The position numbers and the translations under genes are program-made. DNA of 17,913 nucleotides from a virus. Lineage: Duplodnaviria; Heunggongvirae; Uroviricota; Caudoviricetes. The notes under the pieces were generated by a model. It did no database searches and was not told the DNA's origin. It saw only the letters and a list, made by a program, of their open reading frames with translations. The DNA lies in IMG/VR virus record IMGVR_UViG_2671181134_000011. One strand, written 5' to 3'. How positions within the stretch are numbered: position 1 is the first letter of the stretch; every line of letters begins with the position of its first letter. Positions 1,918 through 17,913 of the stretch are shown piece after piece.

Positions 1918-2219
1918 GAATCCTCCCGGCCGGGATAATATTGTGAGTAAAATAAGGAGCGGGCTGAAGTCCGGAAGTTACAGGACAATGGCAGAAGGGA
2001 GACGACAGCCCGCAATTCGAAAAAGACCGCGCAGTTGCGCAGCCTTATGAATTCTGGTTAAAATCCATTCGATTATAAAAATGTATATCTCATGCTGTTG
2101 CCCGAACCCACTCAGGCTTTTTTTTGCCCACAAGAAAGCCCCTCCGGAGAGGGGCTGGAGAGTGGCGCTATGTGCCATTGCATGGTGCCGGTTGCCTCCC
2201 GGTGAGTTCAGTATCAGCA

Positions 2220-2261
2220 NNNNNNNNNNNNNNNNNNNNNNNNNNNNNNNNNNNNNNNNNN
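2220..2261. other. Assembly gap (run of 42 N)
   Basis: Literal N characters in the sequence. Confidence 0.95.
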
Positions 2262-2304
2262 ACGGGAAAGCAACAACCACCACACCCATCAGCCGCCCAT
2301 TTAC

Positions 2305-2336
2305 CACAAATAAAAAAGCCTTCAGGACTGAAGGCG
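2305..2336 (-). terminator. Intrinsic terminator (minus strand) overlapping the stop of the 65-aa ORF
   Basis: Perfect hairpin gccttcag/gac/ctgaaggc at 2318-2335; the plus-strand A-run aaataaaaaa at 2308-2317 gives a U-run 3' of the stem on the minus transcript. Confidence 0.4.
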
Positions 2337-5174: not shown

Positions 5175-5330
5175 TTACTCCTCAGGTTCGTAAACTGTGA
5201 AGACAGCGACCTCCGTCTGGCCGGTTCGGATTCGTACCTCGCAGAGGTCTTTCCTCGTTACCAGTGCCGTCACTATGACGGTTAAACAGATGACGATCAG
5301 GGCGATTAACATCGCCTTTTGCTGCTTCAT
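5175..5330 (-). CDS. hok: Hok-family membrane toxin (51 aa)
   Basis: Translation MKQQKAMLIALIVICLTVIVTALVTRKDLCEVRIRTGQTEVAVFTVYEPEE: single TM helix and conserved C-terminal region typical of Hok/RelF. ATG at 5328-5330 with AAGGAG 10 nt upstream. The ORF track extends it in frame to an ATG at 5387. Confidence 0.8.
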   Translation of the reverse strand: MKQQKAMLIALIVICLTVIVTALVTRKDLCEVRIRTGQTEVAVFTVYEPEE

Positions 5331-5506
5331 AGCCTGCTTCTCCTTGCCTTTCGGCACGTAAGAGGCTAACCTAGATTTGCCGTTCATAGATTGAGCCTCA
5401 GATTAATGTTAAGCGTCTTGCAGGACGCGTAATGTTAACTGGGGCTTTTCTCTATCTGCCTTTTGGTATTCATGCCTGAGACAGATAGCCTCAAGCACCC
5501 GCAGCA

Positions 5507-7796: not shown

Positions 7797-8100
7797 TGGC
7801 TGCCTCCTTTGCCGGGATTTCTAACTTTTGAGTGGTTGTATCAAATTCAAACAACTTAACCACGTCATCAAACAGGACATAATCACCATCAGGATCTTCA
7901 GTCATATCAGTGCCACAATCCTGACCGCACGAGTCGCAACCACCCATATCAAGCTCGTATCGCTTCAGGTTCGCGATATTTGATAAATTCAGCGCCAGTA
8001 CAGCCAGATCATTAACCTCGTCTGCGGTATACCCTGCACCATGTCCATACATTCCAATGCGGGATATGATTTCTTCTACACGTTGTTTTGTGATCGTCAT
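7783..8100 (-). CDS. Hypothetical acidic protein (105 aa) with CDSCGQDCG motif
   Basis: ATG at 8098-8100 preceded by GGAGTGAAGAGAAAA; the ORF track extends it to a TTG at 8124. Acidic C-terminus. Confidence 0.45.
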   Translation of the reverse strand: MTITKQRVEEIISRIGMYGHGAGYTADEVNDLAVLALNLSNIANLKRYELDMGGCDSCGQDCGTDMTEDPDGDYVLFDDVVKLFEFDTTTQKLEIPAKEAASEQD

Positions 8101-9108: not shown

Positions 9109-9684
9109 CTATGGTAAAACCAGGTCATCCGCTTGCGTTTCGGTGAACAGTGGCAACGACTGCACAATATCCACCACAGTTTCTGTTTTAATATCTTCCT
9201 GTGTAGTCGTTTGCTGGACTGGTAACGCAACACCTGCTGGCTGAGGAAGGGCTTTACCATCCGTTTCCGCTACAGATGCGGCTTTCGGCTCTACTGGTAA
9301 ATTATCGCCCGGCATGCAGTAACGAAATTTACCGCCCTGATTCACGCGAATCAGACGCCCTTTGCTGATTGCCATTGCCAGCGATGAATTCGCACGGCGG
9401 GAGGTAATTCCGAACATCAATGCCAGCTCATCCGCCGTTTGTGGGCCATGTTGTTCAATCGCCTCTGTCAGCATTTGCGCCGTCACTTTTGGTGGTTGTA
9501 TCACAGATTCACTTTCCCCTGCCTGAGTCAGCCACCACATCGCCCCCCTGTTATCCGCTTCACCACGGCGTTTCAGTTTCCACAGTTCGTTGACAGCCTC
9601 TTCACGACTGATTCCAAGGCGCGCAGCCACCACATGTGAAGAGGCTTTTTTCAGTGCTTTCAGTGCGTCAGATACGGTTTCCAT
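9109..9684 (-). CDS. Hypothetical protein with two winged-helix-like segments (191 aa)
   Basis: ATG at 9682-9684 preceded by GGAGG. Segments [22 protein letters not shown] and [27 protein letters not shown] resemble wHTH recognition units. Confidence 0.55.
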
Positions 9685-9705
9685 TAAAATTTCCTCCGGA
9701 CAAAA

Positions 9706-10452
9706 TTACTTCACAACCCTCATATTGCTGACATTTGGACGCCAGCTATCCCAGTTAAACGTCACCCATCGACCACCGTTCATGGTCATGCGGTCCATAA
9801 TCCTCTCACCAAGAAGCGTACTCATTGCGGCATGATTCAGGTTTGTTAACATCCCGACACTGCACAGTGATGCTGTCCGGCGATCAATTATCTGGTGCAA
9901 TACCACCTGCTCGTTTTTCGTCTCCCGCTGGACGCCTATTTCATCCAGGACCAGCAAATCAACCCCGCAAAGCTCCTGTAAAAATTTTTCCCCGGATTTG
10001 CCGTTGTCGTAGCTGTCATGCAACACGCTCATGACGTCAGACACGGTGACGATAATCACGCTGCGCCCCTTCACCATCAGCCGGTTGCCCATCGCCGCTG
10101 CAAGGTGATTTTTCCCGGTGCCGGTTTTACCGCTGAACACAAAATTCGTGCACCCGGTCATCAGTTCGTCAGCTATGGATTTGGCCTAGCTCAGCGCGTA
10201 TTTTTGCCCGTCGTTCTGCACCTGATAATTTGCAAACGAGCATTTGCTGTGCAGAGGCTGGATGCCCGAACGATTCAGGATTTTTTCCACCCGCAACTGG
10301 CGATTCTGGCAGTTAATCTCCTCGCTGCGTTTTCGTCCTTCAGCAAGTTGCCATTCCCGCCACTCCTCCACCGTCCGGTACGGTGGAACCGCCCCCAGTG
10401 GTGCAAGTCTGCGAATACATTCAAGAACCCCAACTGCCGCAATGTTTTTCAT
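9706..10452 (-). pseudogene. dnaC-like helicase-loader gene interrupted by one in-frame amber codon (TAG at 10186-10188)
   Basis: ORFs 10186-10452 and 9706-10161 are in the same frame: ...FANYQVQNDGQKYALS*AKSIADELMTGCTNFVFSGKTGTGKNHLAAA.... Walker A GKTGTGKNHL and downstream LLVLDEIGVQ match DnaC/IstB-type AAA+ loaders; the halves align colinearly with E. coli DnaC as recalled. ATG at 10450-10452. Confidence 0.7.
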
Positions 10453-12140: not shown

Positions 12141-12247
12141 AGCTACTCCTTAGTAAACACAGCAAAGAATACCTATAGGTAAACAAAAGTCAATACCTTT
12201 GGGTTGTTTACCTTACGGTAATCACATCTATTATTTACCTATGGACA
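12141..12247. promoter_or_regulatory. OR-like intergenic control region with TACC-N4-GGTA palindromes
   Basis: Perfect palindrome tacctataggta at 12170-12181; taccttacggta at 12209-12220; degenerate copies tacctttgggtt (12194-12205) and tacctatggaca (12236-12247). Lies between the divergent starts at 12140 (minus) and 12241 (plus). Confidence 0.45.
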
Positions 12248-13079: not shown

Positions 13080-13334
13080 TTAGCGCCAGTAAAAACAGGT
13101 TTCCACAGGTTAATTTACCCTGAAAAGTCAGGGCATAACACGAAAGCGCACGGCGAGATTCCTTTGCATATAAGGTTAGATTTCTTCGACCGTGCGCTTC
13201 CGGTTGTGGCAATCCGCGAAATGGCGCGGCGGTAAGTATGGCGGGGTTATTCCTTCCCCCGTTGAGGACACCGGGTTGTCAGGTTGACCATACGCTTAAG
13301 TGACACCCCAGCCACAACAACCTCTGTTATCACT

Positions 13335-13373
13335 TTTCTGGTGATTCGGCGGAAATGAATATCCGCCCTTTTT
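13335..13373 (+). ncRNA. dicF: DicF-like small RNA, shortened variant, with intrinsic terminator
   Basis: tttctggtga ttc ggcgg aaatgaatat ccgcc cttttt: the 5' UUUCUGGUGA, the GGCGG...CCGCC stem and the 3' CUUUUU tail match K-12 DicF as I recall it, but ~20 nt of internal sequence are missing. Lies directly upstream of dicB. Confidence 0.5.
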
Positions 13374-13551
13374 AAAGTGAATTTTGTGATGCTGTGAATG
13401 CGGCTATGCGCACGCGGAACAGTTAAAGCAGTAAGGCGGTCTTTTACTGGCGTAACGAGCATCAACTAACCCGACGTTAATTGTTAACTGGTTAACGTCA
13501 CCTGGAGGCACCAGGCGCTGCATCACAAAATTCATTGTTGAGGACGCGATA

Positions 13552-13740
13552 ATGGAAACGTTATTACCAAACGTTAATACGTCTGAAGGTTGTTTTGATA
13601 TTGGTGTTCTGCTCAGTAATAAAGCGTTTACTGAGGATGCCATTAATATGCGGAAATATGAGCCTTATCTGCTCAATGATAATTCCATTCTTTCCCGAAT
13701 TGCCCTTATTAAACTTGGTATTTTCGGAGAACGTCAATGA
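13552..13740 (+). CDS. dicB: DicB-like cell-division inhibitor (62 aa)
   Basis: METLLPNVNTSEGCFDIGVLLSNKAFTEDAINMRK... matches the DicB N-terminus (MKTLLPNVNTSEGCFEIGV...FTEDAINKRK, from memory). GAGGA SD 6 nt upstream of the ATG; AT-rich codon usage. Confidence 0.7.
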   Translation: METLLPNVNTSEGCFDIGVLLSNKAFTEDAINMRKYEPYLLNDNSILSRIALIKLGIFGERQ

Positions 13741-13925
13741 CTTCAGCATTTGCACTGGTGATGACGGTTTTTCTTATAACGGGTGAATAACAGAATGTGA
13801 TTACCGGAATTTATGCCAGTAAAGAATCCTGCCTCCAGGCAAGAGACGAGCAAAAAATTTCTGGTGAATGCCTACCGGTAAAAAAAGTATCGCTGAACCT
13901 GAATAACGAAACACCGGCTGGATAA
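13737..13925 (+). pseudogene. ydfD-like small membrane protein gene interrupted by in-frame TAA at codon 18
   Basis: ATG 13737 (ATGA overlap with the dicB stop): MTSAFALVMTVFLITGE, TAA at 13788-13790, then 44 further in-frame codons QNVITGIYASKESCLQARDEQKISGECLPVKKVSLNLNNETPAG to TAA at 13923-13925. Total 63 codons, the size and position of Qin ydfD as recalled. Confidence 0.45.
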
Positions 13926-14020
13926 CCCGCCAGCCATATTAACGCCATACCAACGGATTAAAAATGCCAGCAATAGCAGGGATTCGTTCACCCTGAAATC
14001 TGTAATGAGGTTAAAACACA

Positions 14021-16492
14021 ATGAATAAAATCTTTATTTGCGCTGCTATTCCTGACGAACAGGCCATAGAAGAAGATAGCGCTGTTGCGGTGGCCACTGC
14101 CATTGAAGCCGGTGATGAGCGTCGCGCACGCGCAAAATTTCACTGGCAATTTCTGGAGCAATTCCCGGCAGCTCAGGACTGCGCTTATAAATTTATTGTC
14201 TGCGAGGATAAACCCAGTATACCCCGCCCTGCCCTCGATTCCTGGGATACCGAATATATGCAGGAAAACCGCTGGGATGAGGAGTCTGCGTCCTTTGTCC
14301 CGGTCGAACCCGAATCCGATCCGATGAACGTCACTTTTGACAATCTGGCCCCTGAAGTACAGAACGCCGTCATGGTTAAGTTCGACGCATGTGAAAACAT
14401 CACTGTTGATATGGTGATTAGCGCTCAGGAATTGTTGCAGGAAGACATGGCAACATTCGACGGCCATATCGTTGAAGCGTTGATGAAGATGCCAGAAGTT
14501 AACGCCATGTATCCGGAGCTTAAGCTGCATGCCATCGGGTGGGTTAAGCATAAATGTAAACCTGCTGCTAAATGGCCCGAAATTCAGGCAGAGATGCGCA
14601 TCTGGAAAAAACGTCGCGAAAGTGAACGCAAGGAAACCGGGAAATACATATCTGTCGTTGATATCGCCCGTTCCAGAGTAAACCAACAGAACACTGAAAA
14701 CGCTGCTGAAAAAACCGGGGCTGTCACTGTTGCCGTTCGCCGCGAATACAAACAGACATGGAAAACACTCGACAATGAACTGGCCTGCGCCCTCTGGCCC
14801 GGTGATGTGGATGCAGGAAACATTGACGGTACCATCCATCGCTGGGCGACAAATGAGGTTATCGACAAGGATCGCGAAGACTGGAAGCGTATCTCAGCAT
14901 CAATGCGCAAACAGCCCGAAGCACTTGCCTATGACCGTCAGACTATTTTTGGCCTTGTTCGCGAACGTCCGATCGATATTCACAAAGATCCCGTTGCACT
15001 GAACAAATATATCAGCGAATACCTGACGACAAAGGGCGTGTTTGAACATGAAGAAACAGACCAGAGCTCTGCTGATGCTCTCCAGTCACCAGCAGCACAA
15101 ACTGCTCCAGTGGAGACGGCAGAATCCGATACTCAAAAAAATGAAATCCTGGTGGAAGCTGAACCATCTGTAGAGCGTGAAGGACCATTTTATTTCGTCT
15201 TTACCGATAAGGGCGGGGAAAAATACGGCAGGGCAAACAAACTTTCTGGTCTGGACAGGGCGCTGGCTGCCGGCGGTACCGAAATCTCAAAAGAAGAATA
15301 TTTTGCCCGAAAAAATGGCACATACACGGGCTTACCGCAAAATGTGGATAGCACTGAAGATTCCGAACAACCAGAGCCGGTAAAAGTTACCGCTGACGAA
15401 GTAAACAAAATTATGCAGGCAGCCAATATCAGCCAGCCTGACGCCGATAAATTGCTTGCTGCATCACGTGGTGAATTTGTTGAAGGGATTAGCGACCCGG
15501 ATGATCCGAAATGGGTGAAAGGGATCCAGAGTCGCGACGCTGAGGACCAGAATCAGCCCAACGTGAAACAAAATGAGCCAGAAGCGGAACAAAACAGCCC
15601 GGATACGCAACAAAACGGGCCAGAAGAACAACAACCAGAACCAGCAGTGCAACAGGAACTGGAAAAAGTTTGCACCGCATGCGGTCAGACCGGTGGCGGC
15701 AACTGTCCTGACTGTGGTGCGGTGATGGGGAACGCAACCTACCAGGAAACATTCGATGAAGAAAATCAGGCTGAAGCTCAGGAAAATGATCCGGAGGAAA
15801 TGGAAGGCACTGAACATCTGCACAAGGAGAACACTGTCAGCGATCAGTATCACGCCAGCGATAATAAAACTGGCGAAACAGCAAATCCCTTAATTAAAGT
15901 GAACGGTCATCATGAAACCACATCCACCAGCAGGTTGTGGCACCATCTGATGATTGACCTTGAAACAATGGGAAAAAATCCTGATGCGCCAATAAACGCT
16001 ATAGCCGGTAAGTTTTTTGATCCGGCAACCGGAGAGATGGGGCCAGAATTCAGCAAAACTATCGATCTGGAAACCGCAGGCGGGGTCATCGATCGGGACA
16101 CCATTAAGTGGTGGCTGAAACAGTCACGCGAAGCACAATCCGCCATTCTGACCGATGAAATCCCGTTGGATGATGCACTGCTGCAATTCCGGGAATTTAT
16201 CGACGAAAACTCCGGTGAATTTTTTGTTCAGGTCTGGGGTAACGGTGCAACTTTCGACAACGTGATTTTACGCCGTTCATATGAACGGCAGGGGATCCCC
16301 TGCCCGTGGCGTTACACCAATGATCGCGATGTAAGAACGATGGTTGCTCTGGGACTGGTGATGGATTTCGACGCAAGAACGACTATTCCATTCGAAGGTG
16401 AACGCCATAACGCGCTGCACGATGCGCGTTACCAAGCAAAATACGTTTCAGCCATCTGGCAAAAACTGATCCCGAGTCAGGCTGATTTTTAA
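14021..16492 (+). CDS. Large early-left protein (823 aa): N-terminal region of unknown function, acidic low-complexity linker with CxxC-x7-CxxC ribbon, C-terminal DEDDh 3'-5' exonuclease domain
   Basis: ATG 14021 with GAGG 10 nt upstream; single open frame to TAA 16490-16492. DnaQ-like motifs in order: MIDLETMG (D646, E648), WGNGATFDNV (D746), HNALHDARY (H796/H800, D801). Zn-ribbon CTACGQTGGGNCPDCG at nt 15671-15715. Directly upstream of xis-int. Confidence 0.8.
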   Translation: MNKIFICAAIPDEQAIEEDSAVAVATAIEAGDERRARAKFHWQFLEQFPAAQDCAYKFIVCEDKPSIPRPALDSWDTEYMQENRWDEESASFVPVEPESDPMNVTFDNLAPEVQNAVMVKFDACENITVDMVISAQELLQEDMATFDGHIVEALMKMPEVNAMYPELKLHAIGWVKHKCKPAAKWPEIQAEMRIWKKRRESERKETGKYISVVDIARSRVNQQNTENAAEKTGAVTVAVRREYKQTWKTLDNELACALWPGDVDAGNIDGTIHRWATNEVIDKDREDWKRISASMRKQPEALAYDRQTIFGLVRERPIDIHKDPVALNKYISEYLTTKGVFEHEETDQSSADALQSPAAQTAPVETAESDTQKNEILVEAEPSVEREGPFYFVFTDKGGEKYGRANKLSGLDRALAAGGTEISKEEYFARKNGTYTGLPQNVDSTEDSEQPEPVKVTADEVNKIMQAANISQPDADKLLAASRGEFVEGISDPDDPKWVKGIQSRDAEDQNQPNVKQNEPEAEQNSPDTQQNGPEEQQPEPAVQQELEKVCTACGQTGGGNCPDCGAVMGNATYQETFDEENQAEAQENDPEEMEGTEHLHKENTVSDQYHASDNKTGETANPLIKVNGHHETTSTSRLWHHLMIDLETMGKNPDAPINAIAGKFFDPATGEMGPEFSKTIDLETAGGVIDRDTIKWWLKQSREAQSAILTDEIPLDDALLQFREFIDENSGEFFVQVWGNGATFDNVILRRSYERQGIPCPWRYTNDRDVRTMVALGLVMDFDARTTIPFEGERHNALHDARYQAKYVSAIWQKLIPSQADF

Positions 16493-16556: not shown

Positions 16557-16805
16557 ATGGCAAGACTTATTCTTCTCACTGAGTGGGCAAAAGAGGAATT
16601 CAGTGACCCGGTCCCGACTCCGGGCACGTTAAGTAAATACGCTAAAGCCGGAATGATATTTCCTCTCCCCAAAAAAGTTGGAAGACACTGGCGAGTGGAT
16701 CCTCGAGCTCGCTTTGTCGGAATGGTAAACAAGCCGGAAGTGATCGCCACAGATCACCCTGCTTTGAAGAGGATACTGGAAGATGGCGCGCCCACGAAAA
16801 TATAA
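16557..16805 (+). CDS. xis: Excisionase (Xis-like)
   Basis: 82 aa, MARLILLTEWAKEEF...GMIFPLPKKVGRHWRV resembles the lambda Xis fold signature (LTLQEW...RIFPPPVKDGREY). Overlaps the int start by 23 nt, as in lambda. Confidence 0.7.
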   Translation: MARLILLTEWAKEEFSDPVPTPGTLSKYAKAGMIFPLPKKVGRHWRVDPRARFVGMVNKPEVIATDHPALKRILEDGAPTKI

Positions 16806-17913
16806 AACTGAAGTTCCGGGATTATCTCCGTATTTTGACAAAAGAAATAACAAAGTTTACTGGCGTTACAGGCATCCCATAACAGGAAAAAATCACGGAC
16901 TCGGCAGTATTGACCAGAAACAGGCAGAAGCTATTGCAGCAGAAGCGAACAGCCGTCTTGCCAGGCAACAAATGGAACAAATGCTCAGTCTGCAGGAGAA
17001 AATTATTAGTGATACCGGTAGTCCATCAACCGTTTCTGCTTTTCTGAATAGTTACCGAAAAATTCAACAGGAAAGATATGAAAACGGAGAGATCAAACTC
17101 AACACACTGAAACAGAAAGCATCCCCTCTCAGAGTATTTGATGAACGTTTTGGTACCAGACCATTAGATGCCATAACCGTAAAAGATGTGGTATCGGTGC
17201 TGGAAGATTACAAGGCAAAAGGACATAACAGAATGGGACAAATTTTCAGGAAAGTACTGATCGATGTTTTCCGGGAGGCCCAGCAAACGGGCGATGTCCC
17301 GCTAGGCTTTAACCCTGCAGAATCGGCAAAAAAACCACAGGTACGGATATCACGGCAACGACTGACCTTTGATGAGTGGATGATGATTTATAATGCAGCG
17401 GAAAAGGATGGTTACTTTTTACAGCGTGGTATGCTGCTGGCACTGATGACAGGCCAGCGCCTTTCAGATATTTGCAAAATGAAATTTTCGGATATCAGGG
17501 ATGGTTATCTTCATGTCGAACAGCAAAAAACAGGAACCCGGATTGCCATCCCTCTGGCTCTGCGTTACGATAAATTAAATCTCACCCTGGATGATGTGGT
17601 GTCATCCTGTCGCGATTGCGTTCTTAGTCCGTGGCTATTGCACCACCATCATGCTAAAGGGACAGCTAAGCGCGGCGGGATGGTTAAGCCAGCAACGTTA
17701 ACCGTTGCATTTAAAAAAGCCCGGGATTCTGTGGATTACAACTGGCGTGCTAATGGCACCCCACCCTCTTTCCATGAGCAGAGATCTTTATCAGAACGAT
17801 TGTTCAGAGAACAGGGAATTGATACCAAAATTTTGCTGGGCCATTCGAATCAAAAAATGACCGATATTTACAACGACGCACGCGGTAAGGAATGGAAAAA
17901 ACTGGTCATTTGA
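16783..17913 (+). CDS. int: Tyrosine integrase, lambda Int family (376 aa, complete)
   Basis: Catalytic-region motifs TGQRLSD, HVEQQKTGTRIAIP, HEQRSLSERL and LLGHSNQKMTDIYNDARGKEWKKL align with lambda Int (VVTGQRVGD, YVEQSKTGVKIAIP, HELRSLSARL, LLGHKSDTMASQYRDDRGREWDKI). Stop codon is the last three bases of the window. Confidence 0.9.
   Translation: MARPRKYKTEVPGLSPYFDKRNNKVYWRYRHPITGKNHGLGSIDQKQAEAIAAEANSRLARQQMEQMLSLQEKIISDTGSPSTVSAFLNSYRKIQQERYENGEIKLNTLKQKASPLRVFDERFGTRPLDAITVKDVVSVLEDYKAKGHNRMGQIFRKVLIDVFREAQQTGDVPLGFNPAESAKKPQVRISRQRLTFDEWMMIYNAAEKDGYFLQRGMLLALMTGQRLSDICKMKFSDIRDGYLHVEQQKTGTRIAIPLALRYDKLNLTLDDVVSSCRDCVLSPWLLHHHHAKGTAKRGGMVKPATLTVAFKKARDSVDYNWRANGTPPSFHEQRSLSERLFREQGIDTKILLGHSNQKMTDIYNDARGKEWKKLVI

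What the first reader, a model, noticed from the sequence alone, without database searches (positions are those of the whole stretch)
14021..16492. 823-aa DEDDh exonuclease fusion in the recE/exo slot, with no annealase partner
Seen in sequence: one 2.47 kb ORF with a good SD; its C-terminal ~180 residues carry the three DnaQ-type motifs in canonical order (D-x-E in MIDLETMG, FD in WGNGATFDNV, H-x4-D in HNALHDARY). Residues ~330-640 are strongly acidic and low-complexity, with an embedded CxxC-x7-CxxC ribbon. The next gene is xis, so no bet/recT-like gene sits between the repressor and int. Established knowledge: in lambda and Rac this slot holds exo-bet or recE-recT, where the nuclease is a 5'-3' PD-(D/E)xK enzyme paired with an annealase. 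Inference: a 3'-5' DEDDh nuclease tethered to a long acidic, possibly DNA-mimicking arm points to a different role, such as degrading nucleic-acid or oligonucleotide signals, anti-defence, or exclusion. I have an unverified recollection that K-12 Qin ydfE (IS-truncated there) and part of the RecE N-terminal region resemble this protein.
Basis: partly seen in the sequence, partly recalled or inferred. Interest (0 to 1): 0.7.

Follow-up and report, generated by a model that had tools for sequence, protein, structure and literature searches.

The report
RecE-like prophage protein with swapped nuclease
This prophage gene keeps the front two-thirds of a RecE-type recombination protein but carries a T4 DexA-like 3'-5' exonuclease at its end and has no annealing partner; the gene family is very common in E. 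coli, already catalogued in databases, and I found no experimental study of it.

Summary
The ORF at 14021-16492 encodes 823 aa. Its C-terminal domain is an intact DEDDh exonuclease (Pfam Rv2179c-like, E=7e-62). The only solved relative found by sequence is T4 DexA, a DNA exonuclease.

Residues 1-255 are 87% identical to K-12 YdfE, and residues 262-625 match RecE 278-591. No annealase gene lies anywhere in the window.

The gene belongs to a modular family found in Enterobacterales in the loci sampled. A RecE- or YdfE-type N-terminal platform carries one of three C-terminal cassettes:
- PD-(D/E)xK nuclease, followed by recT in 5 of 5 loci.
- DEDDh nuclease, followed directly by xis-int in about 11 contexts, none with an annealase.
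- A cassette with no Pfam hit, followed by a Gp157-family gene in the two loci scanned (L014, L017).

Megablast finds the DEDDh cassette in 4061 of 5426 complete E. coli genomes and the K-12 RecE nuclease cassette in 1736. Phage Tritos carries an 84% identical protein. Tritos is the published prototype of a "nuclease only, no annealase, Chi-rich" recombination-module class.

My best reading, at moderate confidence, is a DNA-end-processing exonuclease that works with host RecBCD/RecA. Roles in defence or on RNA are not excluded. I rate it a new variant of a known kind, of moderate interest.

The parts
14007..14010 (+). Shine-Dalgarno-like GAGG, 10 nt upstream of the ATG
   Evidence: Read directly from the sequence.
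14021..16492 (+). 823-aa ORF: platform plus DEDDh exonuclease (PHROG 2082; annotated 'exonuclease' or '3'-5' exonuclease' in RefSeq)
   Evidence: Five orthologues are each exactly 823 codons. dN/dS over the whole gene is 0.18-0.33.
14021..14725 (+). YdfE-type head, aa 1-235 (Pfam YdfE_N and YdfE_C in precomputed annotation of close homologues)
   Evidence: 87% identity to K-12 ydfE over aa 1-255. Pfam names. AF2 confidence is low for aa 1-133 and moderate for aa 135-206. dN/dS is 0.13-0.21.
14741..15052 (+). Helical 'mid' domain, aa 241-344; the module shared by nearly all family members (its match to K-12 RecE itself is weak), with no Pfam model in the local copy
15173..15334 (+). Small beta-beta-alpha-beta-alpha domain, aa 385-438 (REGPFYF...GRANKL...EI.KEEY.ARKNGT)
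   Evidence: pLDDT 91-97. Conserved in many relatives; not evident in the K-12 RecE row. dN/dS 0.06-0.12.
15445..15894 (+). Acidic, predicted-disordered linker shared with RecE (aa 475-625); a mosaic segment
   Evidence: 76% DNA identity to K-12 recE codons 455-591; homology ends at 15894. About 80% protein identity over aa 470-625 by my count of the BLASTP alignment. pLDDT is mostly below 50.
15671..15715 (+). CxxC-x7-CxxC zinc knuckle (C551, C554, C562, C565)
   Evidence: Also present in RecE (CNACGQTGGDNCPDC). pLDDT about 65.
15924..15931 (-). Chi octamer (GCTGGTGG on the - strand) at the junction between linker and nuclease cassette
   Evidence: Conserved at the same codon in 7 of 7 YdfE-head DEDDh genes examined.
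15941..16459 (+). DEDDh (DnaQ-like, Rv2179c/DexA-type) 3'-5' exonuclease domain, aa 641-813
   Evidence: Pfam PF16473, E=7e-62. phmmer against PDB finds only T4 DexA. Foldseek top hits are DexA 8kel, then RNase T. Catalytic residues are invariant. dN/dS is about 0.1.
16557..16805 (+). Excisionase gene, starting 64 nt after the exonuclease stop codon
16783..17913 (+). Integrase gene; the prophage sits next to ompW in close relatives
13552..13740 (+). dicB, an upstream gene of the same early-left operon (Qin/Tritos-type order dicB-ydfD-exo-xis-int)
   Evidence: Pfam DicB, E=1e-35. Same gene order in Tritos and Qin.
12166..12234 (.). The only sigma-70-like promoter matches between 12100 and 17000 (divergent pair at the repressor/cro-like boundary); presumed source of exonuclease transcription
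   Evidence: This is a consensus scan only and is weak evidence.

Best explanation
The gene is the last cargo gene of the early-left operon of a Qin/Tritos-type lambdoid prophage. It encodes a modular protein. An N-terminal RecE/YdfE-type platform contains a head, a conserved helical domain, a small beta/alpha domain, and an acidic disordered linker with a zinc knuckle. At its end the platform carries a DexA-like DEDDh 3'-5' exonuclease in place of RecE's 5'-3' PD-(D/E)xK nuclease.

Proposed mechanism: after induction, the platform brings the exonuclease to phage DNA ends or recombination intermediates. There the exonuclease trims 3' tails or flaps, or blunts ends. Recombination-dependent formation of concatemers is then carried out by host RecBCD-Chi-RecA rather than by a phage annealase.

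Shown here: the architecture, the intact catalytic residues and fold, the homologies, the cassette-partner rule, the absence of annealase and anti-RecBCD genes, the Chi orientation bias, and purifying selection.

Inferred: the DNA substrate, expression only after induction, cooperation with RecBCD/RecA, and what the platform binds.
For: Same slot and same platform as RecE.

The family is modular. The nuclease cassette predicts the neighbouring gene.
- PD-(D/E)xK cassette: followed by a RecT-family gene within about 15 bp in 5 of 5 loci (K-12 Rac, L010, L015, L016, L023).
- DEDDh cassette: followed directly by xis-int, with no annealase, in the window, L001, Tritos, L008, L009, L011, L033 (a Rac-like backbone), L034/L035, L036, L037 and L038. 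These span several integrase types and integration sites.

The only solved relative found by sequence, and the top structural match, is T4 DexA, which the record annotates as a 3'-5' DNA exonuclease. A 51% identical stand-alone homologue lies between ssb and abc2, next to erf, in phage g341c. The 2025 survey reports the same for epsilon34.

Phage Tritos carries an 84% identical protein. It is the published prototype of the class 'nuclease +, annealase -, anti-RecBCD -, many Chi'.

The window has 5 Chi in the proposed active orientation against 2 in the other. The closest complete relative's prophage has 8 against 2. The 7-kb lambda early-left stretch fetched has none.

Folded domains show dN/dS of 0.06-0.21, while the aa 346-384 linker shows 0.6-1.3. 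This holds although the prophage is defective.

The title of Fu et al. [quoted passage not shown] This ties the shared N-terminal region to recombination.
Against: No experiment on this protein was found.

Stand-alone homologues in other phages are often not next to recombination genes: P2-like, YuA, Redjac, N15-like and mEp460.

According to the 2025 survey, cellular DnaQ-like 3'-5' exonucleases usually inhibit homologous recombination.

The Pfam family is named after an exoribonuclease, so the substrate could be RNA.

The platform domains have no informative structural relative. What they bind is unknown.

Chi density equals the E. coli average; only the orientation is biased.
Confidence: 0.4

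Rival explanations
1. It is a defence or exclusion nuclease that destroys the nucleic acid of competing phages. One model is the DexA-like E. coli protein EcD ('HREX'), reported to digest 5hmC-containing T4 DNA. Another is the ISG20-like 'TONDO' exonucleases, which trim RNA-phage 3' ends.
For: A NAR 2025 paper reports that a plasmid-borne E. coli DexA homologue protects against T4 and cuts T4 DNA but not unmodified DNA. A 2026 preprint shows bacterial DEDDh exonucleases with auxiliary domains, some in prophages, defending against MS2 and Qbeta. The gene is intact and under purifying selection in defective prophages, and it is present in about 75% of complete E. coli genomes. That pattern could reflect a benefit to the host.
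Against: In a MAFFT alignment, the two DexA residues reported to recognise 5hmC are T766 (Y in most close relatives) and V780 here. The D90 equivalent, which EcD lacks, is retained as D718. There is no PADLOC hit for the full protein. The gene lies in the repressor-controlled early-left operon with no promoter-like site of its own. It should therefore be silent in a lysogen, as I recall recET being in Rac. This model does not explain the RecE-type platform or the cassette exchange with PD-(D/E)xK plus recT. The TONDO set was drawn from hits under 500 aa related to ISG20, which is a different clade.
Confidence: 0.2
2. It is an exoribonuclease, as the Pfam name and many NCBI annotations say. It would act on RNA 3' ends, for example phage or host mRNAs or the sRNAs of the dicF-dicB operon.
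For: The Pfam family PF16473 is named for the M. tuberculosis exoribonuclease Rv2179c. Many database entries read '3'-5' exoribonuclease'. RNase T and oligoribonuclease are good structural matches. In Qin and Tritos the gene sits in an operon with DicF.
Against: By sequence the only solved relative found is the DNA exonuclease DexA; no other solved chain, Rv2179c included, appeared at E<0.01. The domain replaces a DNA exonuclease on a shared platform. A close stand-alone homologue sits in a DNA recombination module. DicF is not detected in this window.
Confidence: 0.1
3. It is an anti-defence enzyme that degrades host immune nucleic-acid signals or effectors (oligonucleotide messengers, retron msDNA), helped by a DNA-mimicking acidic arm.
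For: It is an early-expressed phage gene with a nuclease and a long acidic region of net charge -39. DEDDh enzymes can degrade short oligonucleotides; Orn and REXO2 are among the structural matches.
Against: From established enzymology, cyclic messengers have no free 3' end, which a 3'-5' exonuclease needs. The acidic arm is shared with RecE, so it is not specific to this nuclease. No contextual link to defence or anti-defence genes was seen in any locus.
Confidence: 0.07
4. It is a decaying remnant of a defective prophage and has no current function.
For: The prophage is defective. The DnaC-like and DUF1627 genes are interrupted, and in the closest complete relative the portal gene is cut by IS600. 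K-12 ydfE is itself a pseudogene.
Against: The reading frame is intact at exactly 823 codons in five divergent orthologues. Folded domains show dN/dS of about 0.1-0.2, and the catalytic residues are conserved. The same gene is present in the complete genome record of phage Tritos.
Confidence: 0.03

Closest known systems
RecE (exonuclease VIII) of the Rac prophage, with its partner RecT
   Same: [quoted passage not shown] The middle region is homologous: aa 262-625 match RecE 278-591, including the zinc knuckle and the acidic linker, and DNA is 76% identical over aa 475-625. Relatives exist that carry RecE's own head plus the DEDDh domain (P0129).
   Different: It has no PD-(D/E)xK nuclease domain. 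The expected polarity is opposite (3'-5'). No recT follows. It scores 253.7 bits on the RecE equivalog model against a cutoff of 1269. The head is YdfE-type, not RecE-type.
T4 DexA (exonuclease A; PDB 8KEL/8KEN)
   Same: It is the only solved relative found by sequence (E=6e-6) and the top structural match. All five DEDDh catalytic residues align. The T4 record annotates DexA as a 3'-5' DNA exonuclease. [quoted passage not shown]
   Different: Identity is only 27%. DexA is a stand-alone 227-aa protein of a virulent phage, with extra loops. The residues reported for 5hmC recognition (W152, D169) are not conserved here.
Exonuclease of Escherichia phage Tritos (TRITO_27) and the 'Tritos' recombination-module class of Genome Res 2025 (PMC12315714)
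   Same: The protein is 84% identical and also 823 aa. The gene order is identical: dicB-ydfD-exo-xis-int. The paper lists this class as nuclease +, annealase -, anti-RecBCD -, with many Chi sites.
   Different: Tritos is a complete phage genome record, whereas this window is a defective prophage. The paper does not describe the fusion architecture or the cassette-partner rule in the text available to me. Its supplementary tables were not readable.
Stand-alone Rv2179c-like exonucleases of temperate phages (g341c gp30, epsilon34, mEp460 gp26)
   Same: They are 51-58% identical to aa 636-823. g341c gp30 lies inside an erf-ssb-exo-abc2 module. mEp460 gp26 lies directly before xis, as here.
   Different: They have no N-terminal platform. 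Their contexts in other phage groups are heterogeneous.
K-12 YdfE (Qin prophage pseudogene)
   Same: It is 87% identical to aa 1-255 and has the same upstream genes, dicB and ydfD. DNA is 80% identical up to the IS2 insertion.
   Different: In K-12 the gene is cut by IS2 at about codon 255. K-12 therefore lacks the mid domain, the linker and the nuclease.

Membership tests
DEDDh (DnaQ-like) 3'-5' exonucleases, Pfam PF16473 Rv2179c-like / DexA-like | Profile score above the curated threshold | tested here: met
   208.7 bits against a cutoff of 27; covers profile positions 1-177 of 177.
DEDDh (DnaQ-like) 3'-5' exonucleases, Pfam PF16473 Rv2179c-like / DexA-like | Exo I D-x-E, Exo II D, and Exo III H-x4-D catalytic residues | tested here: met
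   D646, E648, D746, H796 and D801 are invariant in the alignment with DexA and two phage homologues.
DEDDh (DnaQ-like) 3'-5' exonucleases, Pfam PF16473 Rv2179c-like / DexA-like | RNase H-like alpha/beta fold of the DnaQ type | tested here: met
   In the AF2 model, aa 641-820 have pLDDT 72-94 per 10-residue block. Foldseek top hits are DexA (E=1.4e-8), RNase T, a CRISPR-associated DnaQ domain, Orn and Cap18.
DEDDh (DnaQ-like) 3'-5' exonucleases, Pfam PF16473 Rv2179c-like / DexA-like | 3'-5' exonuclease activity, and its substrate (DNA or RNA) | not testable with these tools
   Requires biochemistry.
RecE / exonuclease VIII (NCBIfam NF007259 equivalog) | Full-length equivalog score | tested here: not met
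   253.7 bits against a cutoff of 1269. Only aa 453-625 match the profile.
RecE / exonuclease VIII (NCBIfam NF007259 equivalog) | C-terminal PD-(D/E)xK 5'-3' nuclease domain | tested here: not met
   BLASTP against K-12 RecE gives no alignment beyond RecE residue 591. phmmer with RecE aa 601-866 hits other family members, but DEDD-type members such as P0121 carry the DEDD domain in that position instead.
RecE / exonuclease VIII (NCBIfam NF007259 equivalog) | Shared N-terminal/middle platform (mid domain, zinc knuckle, acidic linker) | tested here: met
   aa 262-625 align with RecE 278-591, E=2e-58. DNA is 76% identical over aa 475-625.
Two-component phage recombinases (lambda Exo/Bet, RecE/RecT) | Adjacent single-strand annealing protein gene | tested here: not met
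   xis starts 64 nt after the stop codon. No RecT, Bet or Erf is found by Pfam, PHROGs or tblastn anywhere in the window. None follows any DEDDh-type relative examined.
YdfE family (Pfam YdfE_N PF27430, YdfE_C PF27432) | Homology of the head to K-12 YdfE, and Pfam assignment | tested here: met
   87% identity over 255 aa. Homologues at 87-96% identity carry PF27430 and PF27432 in precomputed annotation. These two models are absent from the local Pfam copy, so the window protein itself was not scanned against them.
HREX (5hmC-recognising DexA/EcD exonucleases, NAR 2025) | Residues equivalent to DexA W152 and D169, reported as needed to cut 5hmC DNA | tested here: not met
   In the MAFFT alignment, W152 aligns with T766 (Y in most close relatives) and D169 aligns with V780. 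These lie in loop regions, so the alignment there is uncertain.
HREX (5hmC-recognising DexA/EcD exonucleases, NAR 2025) | Loss of the tetramer-forming D90, as in EcD A78 | tested here: not met
   D718 aligns with DexA D90. The EcD sequence itself could not be retrieved.
HREX (5hmC-recognising DexA/EcD exonucleases, NAR 2025) | Selective cleavage of modified DNA and protection against T4 | not testable with these tools
   Requires experiments.
Known anti-phage defence systems (PADLOC-DB v2) | Match to a defence-system protein model | tested here: not met
   No family matches the full protein. For the isolated domain there is only a 24-residue match to a generic exonuclease effector, at E=0.0026.

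The most novel reading that the evidence does not exclude
The RecE/YdfE N-terminal platform may be a general delivery scaffold that targets interchangeable effector cassettes to one DNA structure or host factor. The three cassettes would be a 5'-3' nuclease with RecT, a 3'-5' DEDDh nuclease alone, and a non-nuclease module with a Gp157-family partner. Under this reading the DEDDh version, found here in far more E. coli genomes than the K-12 RecE nuclease cassette, would define an uncharacterised phage pathway. That pathway would either couple phage replication to host RecBCD-Chi-RecA or act as a nuclease against competing phages.
Probability: 0.2. Interest if true: 0.7.

Novelty: new variant of a known kind. 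Interest (0 to 1): 0.45.

Why it matters
RecET is a textbook recombination system and a workhorse of recombineering. Yet in complete E. coli genomes the same platform far more often carries a nuclease of expected opposite polarity and no annealase: 8021 places in 4061 genomes, against 1827 places in 1736 genomes for the K-12 RecE nuclease cassette (megablast-level detection).

Learning what this protein does would address three questions:
- How the large class of Chi-rich lambdoid phages without Red-like genes replicate and recombine.
- What the long, unexplained N-terminal region of RecE is for.
- Whether a very common prophage gene contributes to recombination between prophages in pathogenic E. 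coli or to phage exclusion.

The cassette-partner rule also provides natural chimeras for experiments.

Tried and rejected
- A literature search with 'RecE' as a word start matched 'receptor' and returned nothing useful. Searches for Rv2179c plus prophage, ydfE, and Tritos found no functional study.
- The supplementary tables of the Genome Res 2025 paper, which would say how the Tritos nuclease was typed, are not held.
- The EcD sequence (HAK9828821.1) could not be retrieved. Whether EcD is a stand-alone homologue or a fragment of this family stays open. Residue numbering suggests a stand-alone protein.
- The word-indexed homologue search returned only near-identical E. coli proteins. Diversity came from the representative search instead.
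- The search for related loci with the full-length alignment failed because no stretch was conserved enough. It worked with the mid-domain alignment.
- There was no PADLOC hit.
- DicF was not detected in the window.
- An internal start that would give a stand-alone nuclease from M644 was considered and rejected, because no Shine-Dalgarno sequence lies upstream of it.
- The idea that stand-alone homologues always sit in recombination modules was tested and rejected. Their contexts are mixed.
Full report

Yes. The ORF at 14021-16492 on the + strand starts with ATG and encodes 823 aa. A GAGG lies 10 nt upstream of the start codon.

The only hit in the local Pfam copy is PF16473, the Rv2179c-like 3'-5' exoribonuclease domain. 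It covers aa 641-813 at E=7e-62, spanning the whole profile. D646, E648, D746, H796 and D801 are invariant in an alignment with the stand-alone exonucleases of phages mEp460 and g341c and with T4 DexA.

Residues 330-640 are acidic: 20% D+E, 8% K+R, net charge -39. C551, C554, C562 and C565 form the CxxC-x7-CxxC motif.

The following genes are xis (16557-16805) and int (16783-17913).

The window contains the entire early-left operon, from the repressor-like gene at 12199 to int. It also contains the replication and nin-like regions. No ORF in it matches RecT, Bet, Erf, lambda Exo, Gam or Abc2 by Pfam, PHROGs or tblastn.

**2.

Both are correct. Residues 1-255 are 87% identical to the K-12 Qin pseudogene ydfE. 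That gene is cut by IS2 at about codon 255, and the DNA homology to Qin runs exactly up to the IS2 element.

Residues 262-625 align with RecE residues 278-591 (E=2e-58). Identity is about 80% over aa 470-625, including the zinc knuckle. At the DNA level, 15445-15894 is 76% identical to recE codons 455-591. Homology stops there, immediately before RecE's nuclease domain. Nothing in the protein matches that nuclease domain. The RecE equivalog model scores 253.7 bits against a cutoff of 1269. The protein is therefore not a RecE orthologue, but it shares RecE's non-catalytic platform.

**3. Anatomy**

An AlphaFold2 model built on 76 sequences gives three confident folded parts:
- A helical domain at aa 241-344, pLDDT about 96.
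- A small beta-beta-alpha-beta-alpha domain at aa 385-438, pLDDT about 95.
- The nuclease domain at aa 641-820, pLDDT 72-94 per 10-residue block.

Residues 135-206 are moderately confident helices. Residues 1-133, 345-384 and most of 439-640 are predicted disordered, and the zinc knuckle is of middling confidence. A second model of aa 236-442 confirmed the two platform domains.

Foldseek against the PDB puts T4 DexA first, followed by RNase T, a CRISPR-associated DnaQ domain, oligoribonucleases and Cap18. By sequence, DexA is the only solved relative.

Selection follows this anatomy. In comparisons with Tritos, E. albertii and E. ruysiae orthologues, dN/dS is 0.06-0.21 in the head, mid, small and nuclease domains. 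It is 0.33-0.42 in the acidic linker and 0.6-1.3 in the aa 346-384 spacer. All five orthologues compared are exactly 823 codons.

**4. How common is it, and is it already catalogued?**

It is very common. Megablast finds the gene in 4781 of 5426 complete E. coli genomes. In 3535 of these the match covers at least 80% of the gene. The median is two copies per genome and the maximum nine. The annotations read 'exonuclease' or '3'-5' exonuclease'.

The protein is the full-length member of PHROG 2082. Close homologues carry the Pfam families YdfE_N and YdfE_C plus Rv2179c-like in precomputed annotation.

The nuclease cassette alone is found in 4061 genomes at 8021 places. The K-12 RecE nuclease cassette is found in 1736 genomes at 1827 places. 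This is a megablast-level comparison, so more divergent variants of either cassette are missed.

The best phage match is Escherichia phage Tritos, at 84% identity and 823 aa. Its gene order is cI, small genes, DicF, dicB, ydfD, exo, xis, int.

**5. A modular family with a cassette-partner rule**

A search of 1.84 billion cluster representatives with aa 1-640 found only 245 clusters. All 16 loci recovered from the species-level genome collection are Enterobacterales, apart from one MAG labelled only 'Proteobacteria'.

Mapping domains onto the long members shows two alternative heads, YdfE-type or RecE-type. These are followed by the shared mid domain, usually the zinc-knuckle linker, and then one of three C-terminal cassettes:
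- the DEDDh domain,
- the RecE PD-(D/E)xK domain, or
- about 300 residues with no Pfam match.

Both heads occur with both nucleases.

The cassette predicts the downstream gene.
- In K-12 Rac and in all four PD-(D/E)xK-type loci from other species, a RecT-family gene starts within about 15 bp of the stop codon (Pfam E from 1e-35 to 3e-44).
- In every DEDDh-type context examined, the next genes are xis and int, with no annealase. These contexts are the window, its close relatives at ompW, Tritos, E. albertii, E. ruysiae, a Rac-like backbone with kilR-ydaE, two relatives that are 30 and 34% identical to the query, and E. coli prophages at potC and yccA with other integrases.
- In the third type, the two loci scanned (L014, L017) have a Sipho_Gp157-family gene next. 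L018-L022 have a similar unscanned ORF, and several also have a 60-aa ORF.

The third type probably corresponds to the 'RecE-2' proteins without a nuclease domain mentioned in the 2025 survey.

Intragenic mosaicism is visible. One relative is 99-100% identical to the window protein in aa 1-345 but only 77-78% identical in aa 441-823. Exchange therefore seems to happen inside the linker.

**6. What the literature says**

[quoted passage not shown] It also says these nucleases usually inhibit recombination in cells. It lists a small class with Tritos as prototype that has a nuclease but no annealase, no SSB and no anti-RecBCD gene, and many Chi sites. The authors propose that phages lacking a recombination module use Chi and RecBCD to form packageable concatemers.

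The window fits that picture. It has no Gam or Abc2. Five of its seven Chi sites are in the orientation that corresponds to the paper's active strand. The prophage of the closest complete relative has eight against two.

A NAR 2025 paper (PMC12153337) solved the structure of DexA. [quoted passage not shown] It reports that an E. coli homologue, EcD, protects against T4 by cutting 5hmC DNA.

A 2026 preprint reports that ISG20-like bacterial DEDDh exonucleases defend against RNA phages.

I found no study of YdfE-type proteins themselves.

**7. Best explanation**

I read the protein as a DNA 3'-5' exonuclease carried by the RecE-type platform. It would be expressed with the early-left operon after induction. 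It would process phage DNA ends or recombination intermediates by trimming 3' tails or flaps or by blunting ends. This would occur in phages that leave strand exchange to host RecBCD-Chi-RecA rather than to their own annealase.

The supports are:
- the shared slot and platform with RecE,
- the exchange of the nuclease cassette together with recT as one unit,
- DexA as the nearest characterised enzyme,
- a 51% identical stand-alone homologue embedded in erf-ssb-exo-abc2 in g341c,
- the Tritos class, and
- the Chi bias.

The title of Fu et al. 2012 (cited) links RecE's N-terminal region to linear-linear recombination.

The weak points are:
- there is no biochemistry on this protein,
- the platform domains are structural orphans,
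- cellular 3'-5' exonucleases generally have an anti-recombination effect.

Confidence is about 0.4.

**8. Rivals**

*Defence or exclusion (0.2).* This is suggested by EcD and the TONDO enzymes and by the gene's persistence in defective prophages. Against it:
- the 5hmC-recognition residues of DexA are not conserved (T766 and V780 in the alignment),
- the D90 equivalent is retained,
- there is no PADLOC hit,
- the model does not explain the RecE platform.

*An RNA-directed role (0.1).* This rests mainly on the family name and on database annotations.

*Anti-defence by degrading signals (0.07).* From established enzymology, cyclic messengers offer no 3' end. The acidic arm is shared with RecE.

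*A dead remnant (0.03).* This is contradicted by selection and conservation.

**9. Verdict**

The protein is not a RecE orthologue, and it is not new to the databases. It is abundant, named, and represented in phage Tritos, whose nuclease-only module has been noted in print.

What appears not to be described in the literature I could search is:
- the fusion architecture as a platform with three exchangeable cassettes,
- the strict cassette-partner rule, and
- the finding that the DEDDh cassette is detected in more than twice as many E. coli genomes as the K-12 RecE nuclease cassette.

The function remains untested. I rate it a new variant of a known kind, with moderate interest (0.45).

Noticed in passing
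window 15924-15931 (- strand); also L004, L009, L011, L025, L037, L038: A Chi octamer lies 10 codons before DEDDh motif I, about 30 nt after the point where homology to recE ends. It is conserved at the same codon in 7 of 7 YdfE-head DEDDh genes examined, although dS in this part of the gene is 0.3-0.7. It may mark, or promote, the cassette junction.
   Followed up: partly
window, whole; L044:1-49162: Chi sites are biased in orientation: 5 on the - strand against 2 on the + strand in the window, and 8 against 2 in the closest complete relative's prophage. The 7-kb lambda early-left stretch fetched has none. Density is about the E. coli average, so only the orientation is unusual.
   Followed up: partly
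L013, L014, L017-L022 (loci from the species-level genome collection): A third cassette type exists on the same platform: about 300 C-terminal residues with no Pfam hit. It is followed by a Sipho_Gp157 (PF05565) gene in the two loci scanned (L014, L017). L018-L022 have a similar unscanned ORF, and several have a conserved 60-aa ORF. This type is probably the 'RecE-2' proteins of the 2025 survey.
   Followed up: partly
window 5175-5500 (- strand): A hok/sok toxin-antisense locus sits in the nin-like region: a Hok/Gef ORF at 5175-5387 and an Rfam sok match at 5325-5500 (112 bits).
   Followed up: no
window 2126-2326 (- strand): There is an Rfam match to the sRNA family STnc100 just above its gathering score (47.6 against 47 bits).
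   Followed up: no
window 9109-10452 (- strand): The DnaC/IstB-like replication gene appears split into 9706-10161 and 10186-10452, and the DUF1627 gene is shortened. Close relatives are annotated with internal stops there, and their portal gene is cut by IS600. The prophage is therefore defective, while the exonuclease gene stays intact.
   Followed up: partly
window 13080-13550: DicF, which lies between the small ORFs and dicB in Qin and Tritos, is not detected here even at a permissive threshold. A terminator-like hairpin at 13348-13367 has a CCGCCCTTTTTAAAG tail and might be a remnant of the DicF terminator.
   Followed up: partly
L025:5000-7472 compared with window 14021-16492: There is mosaicism inside the gene. 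Residues 1-345 are 99-100% identical between the two, but residues 441-823 are only 77-78% identical. This points to recombination within the linker between prophage lineages.
   Followed up: partly
window 13797-13925: The ydfD (DUF1482) gene upstream of the exonuclease is annotated as only 42 aa in the closest relative, against 62-67 aa in Qin, Tritos and other prophages. It may be truncated here.
   Followed up: no
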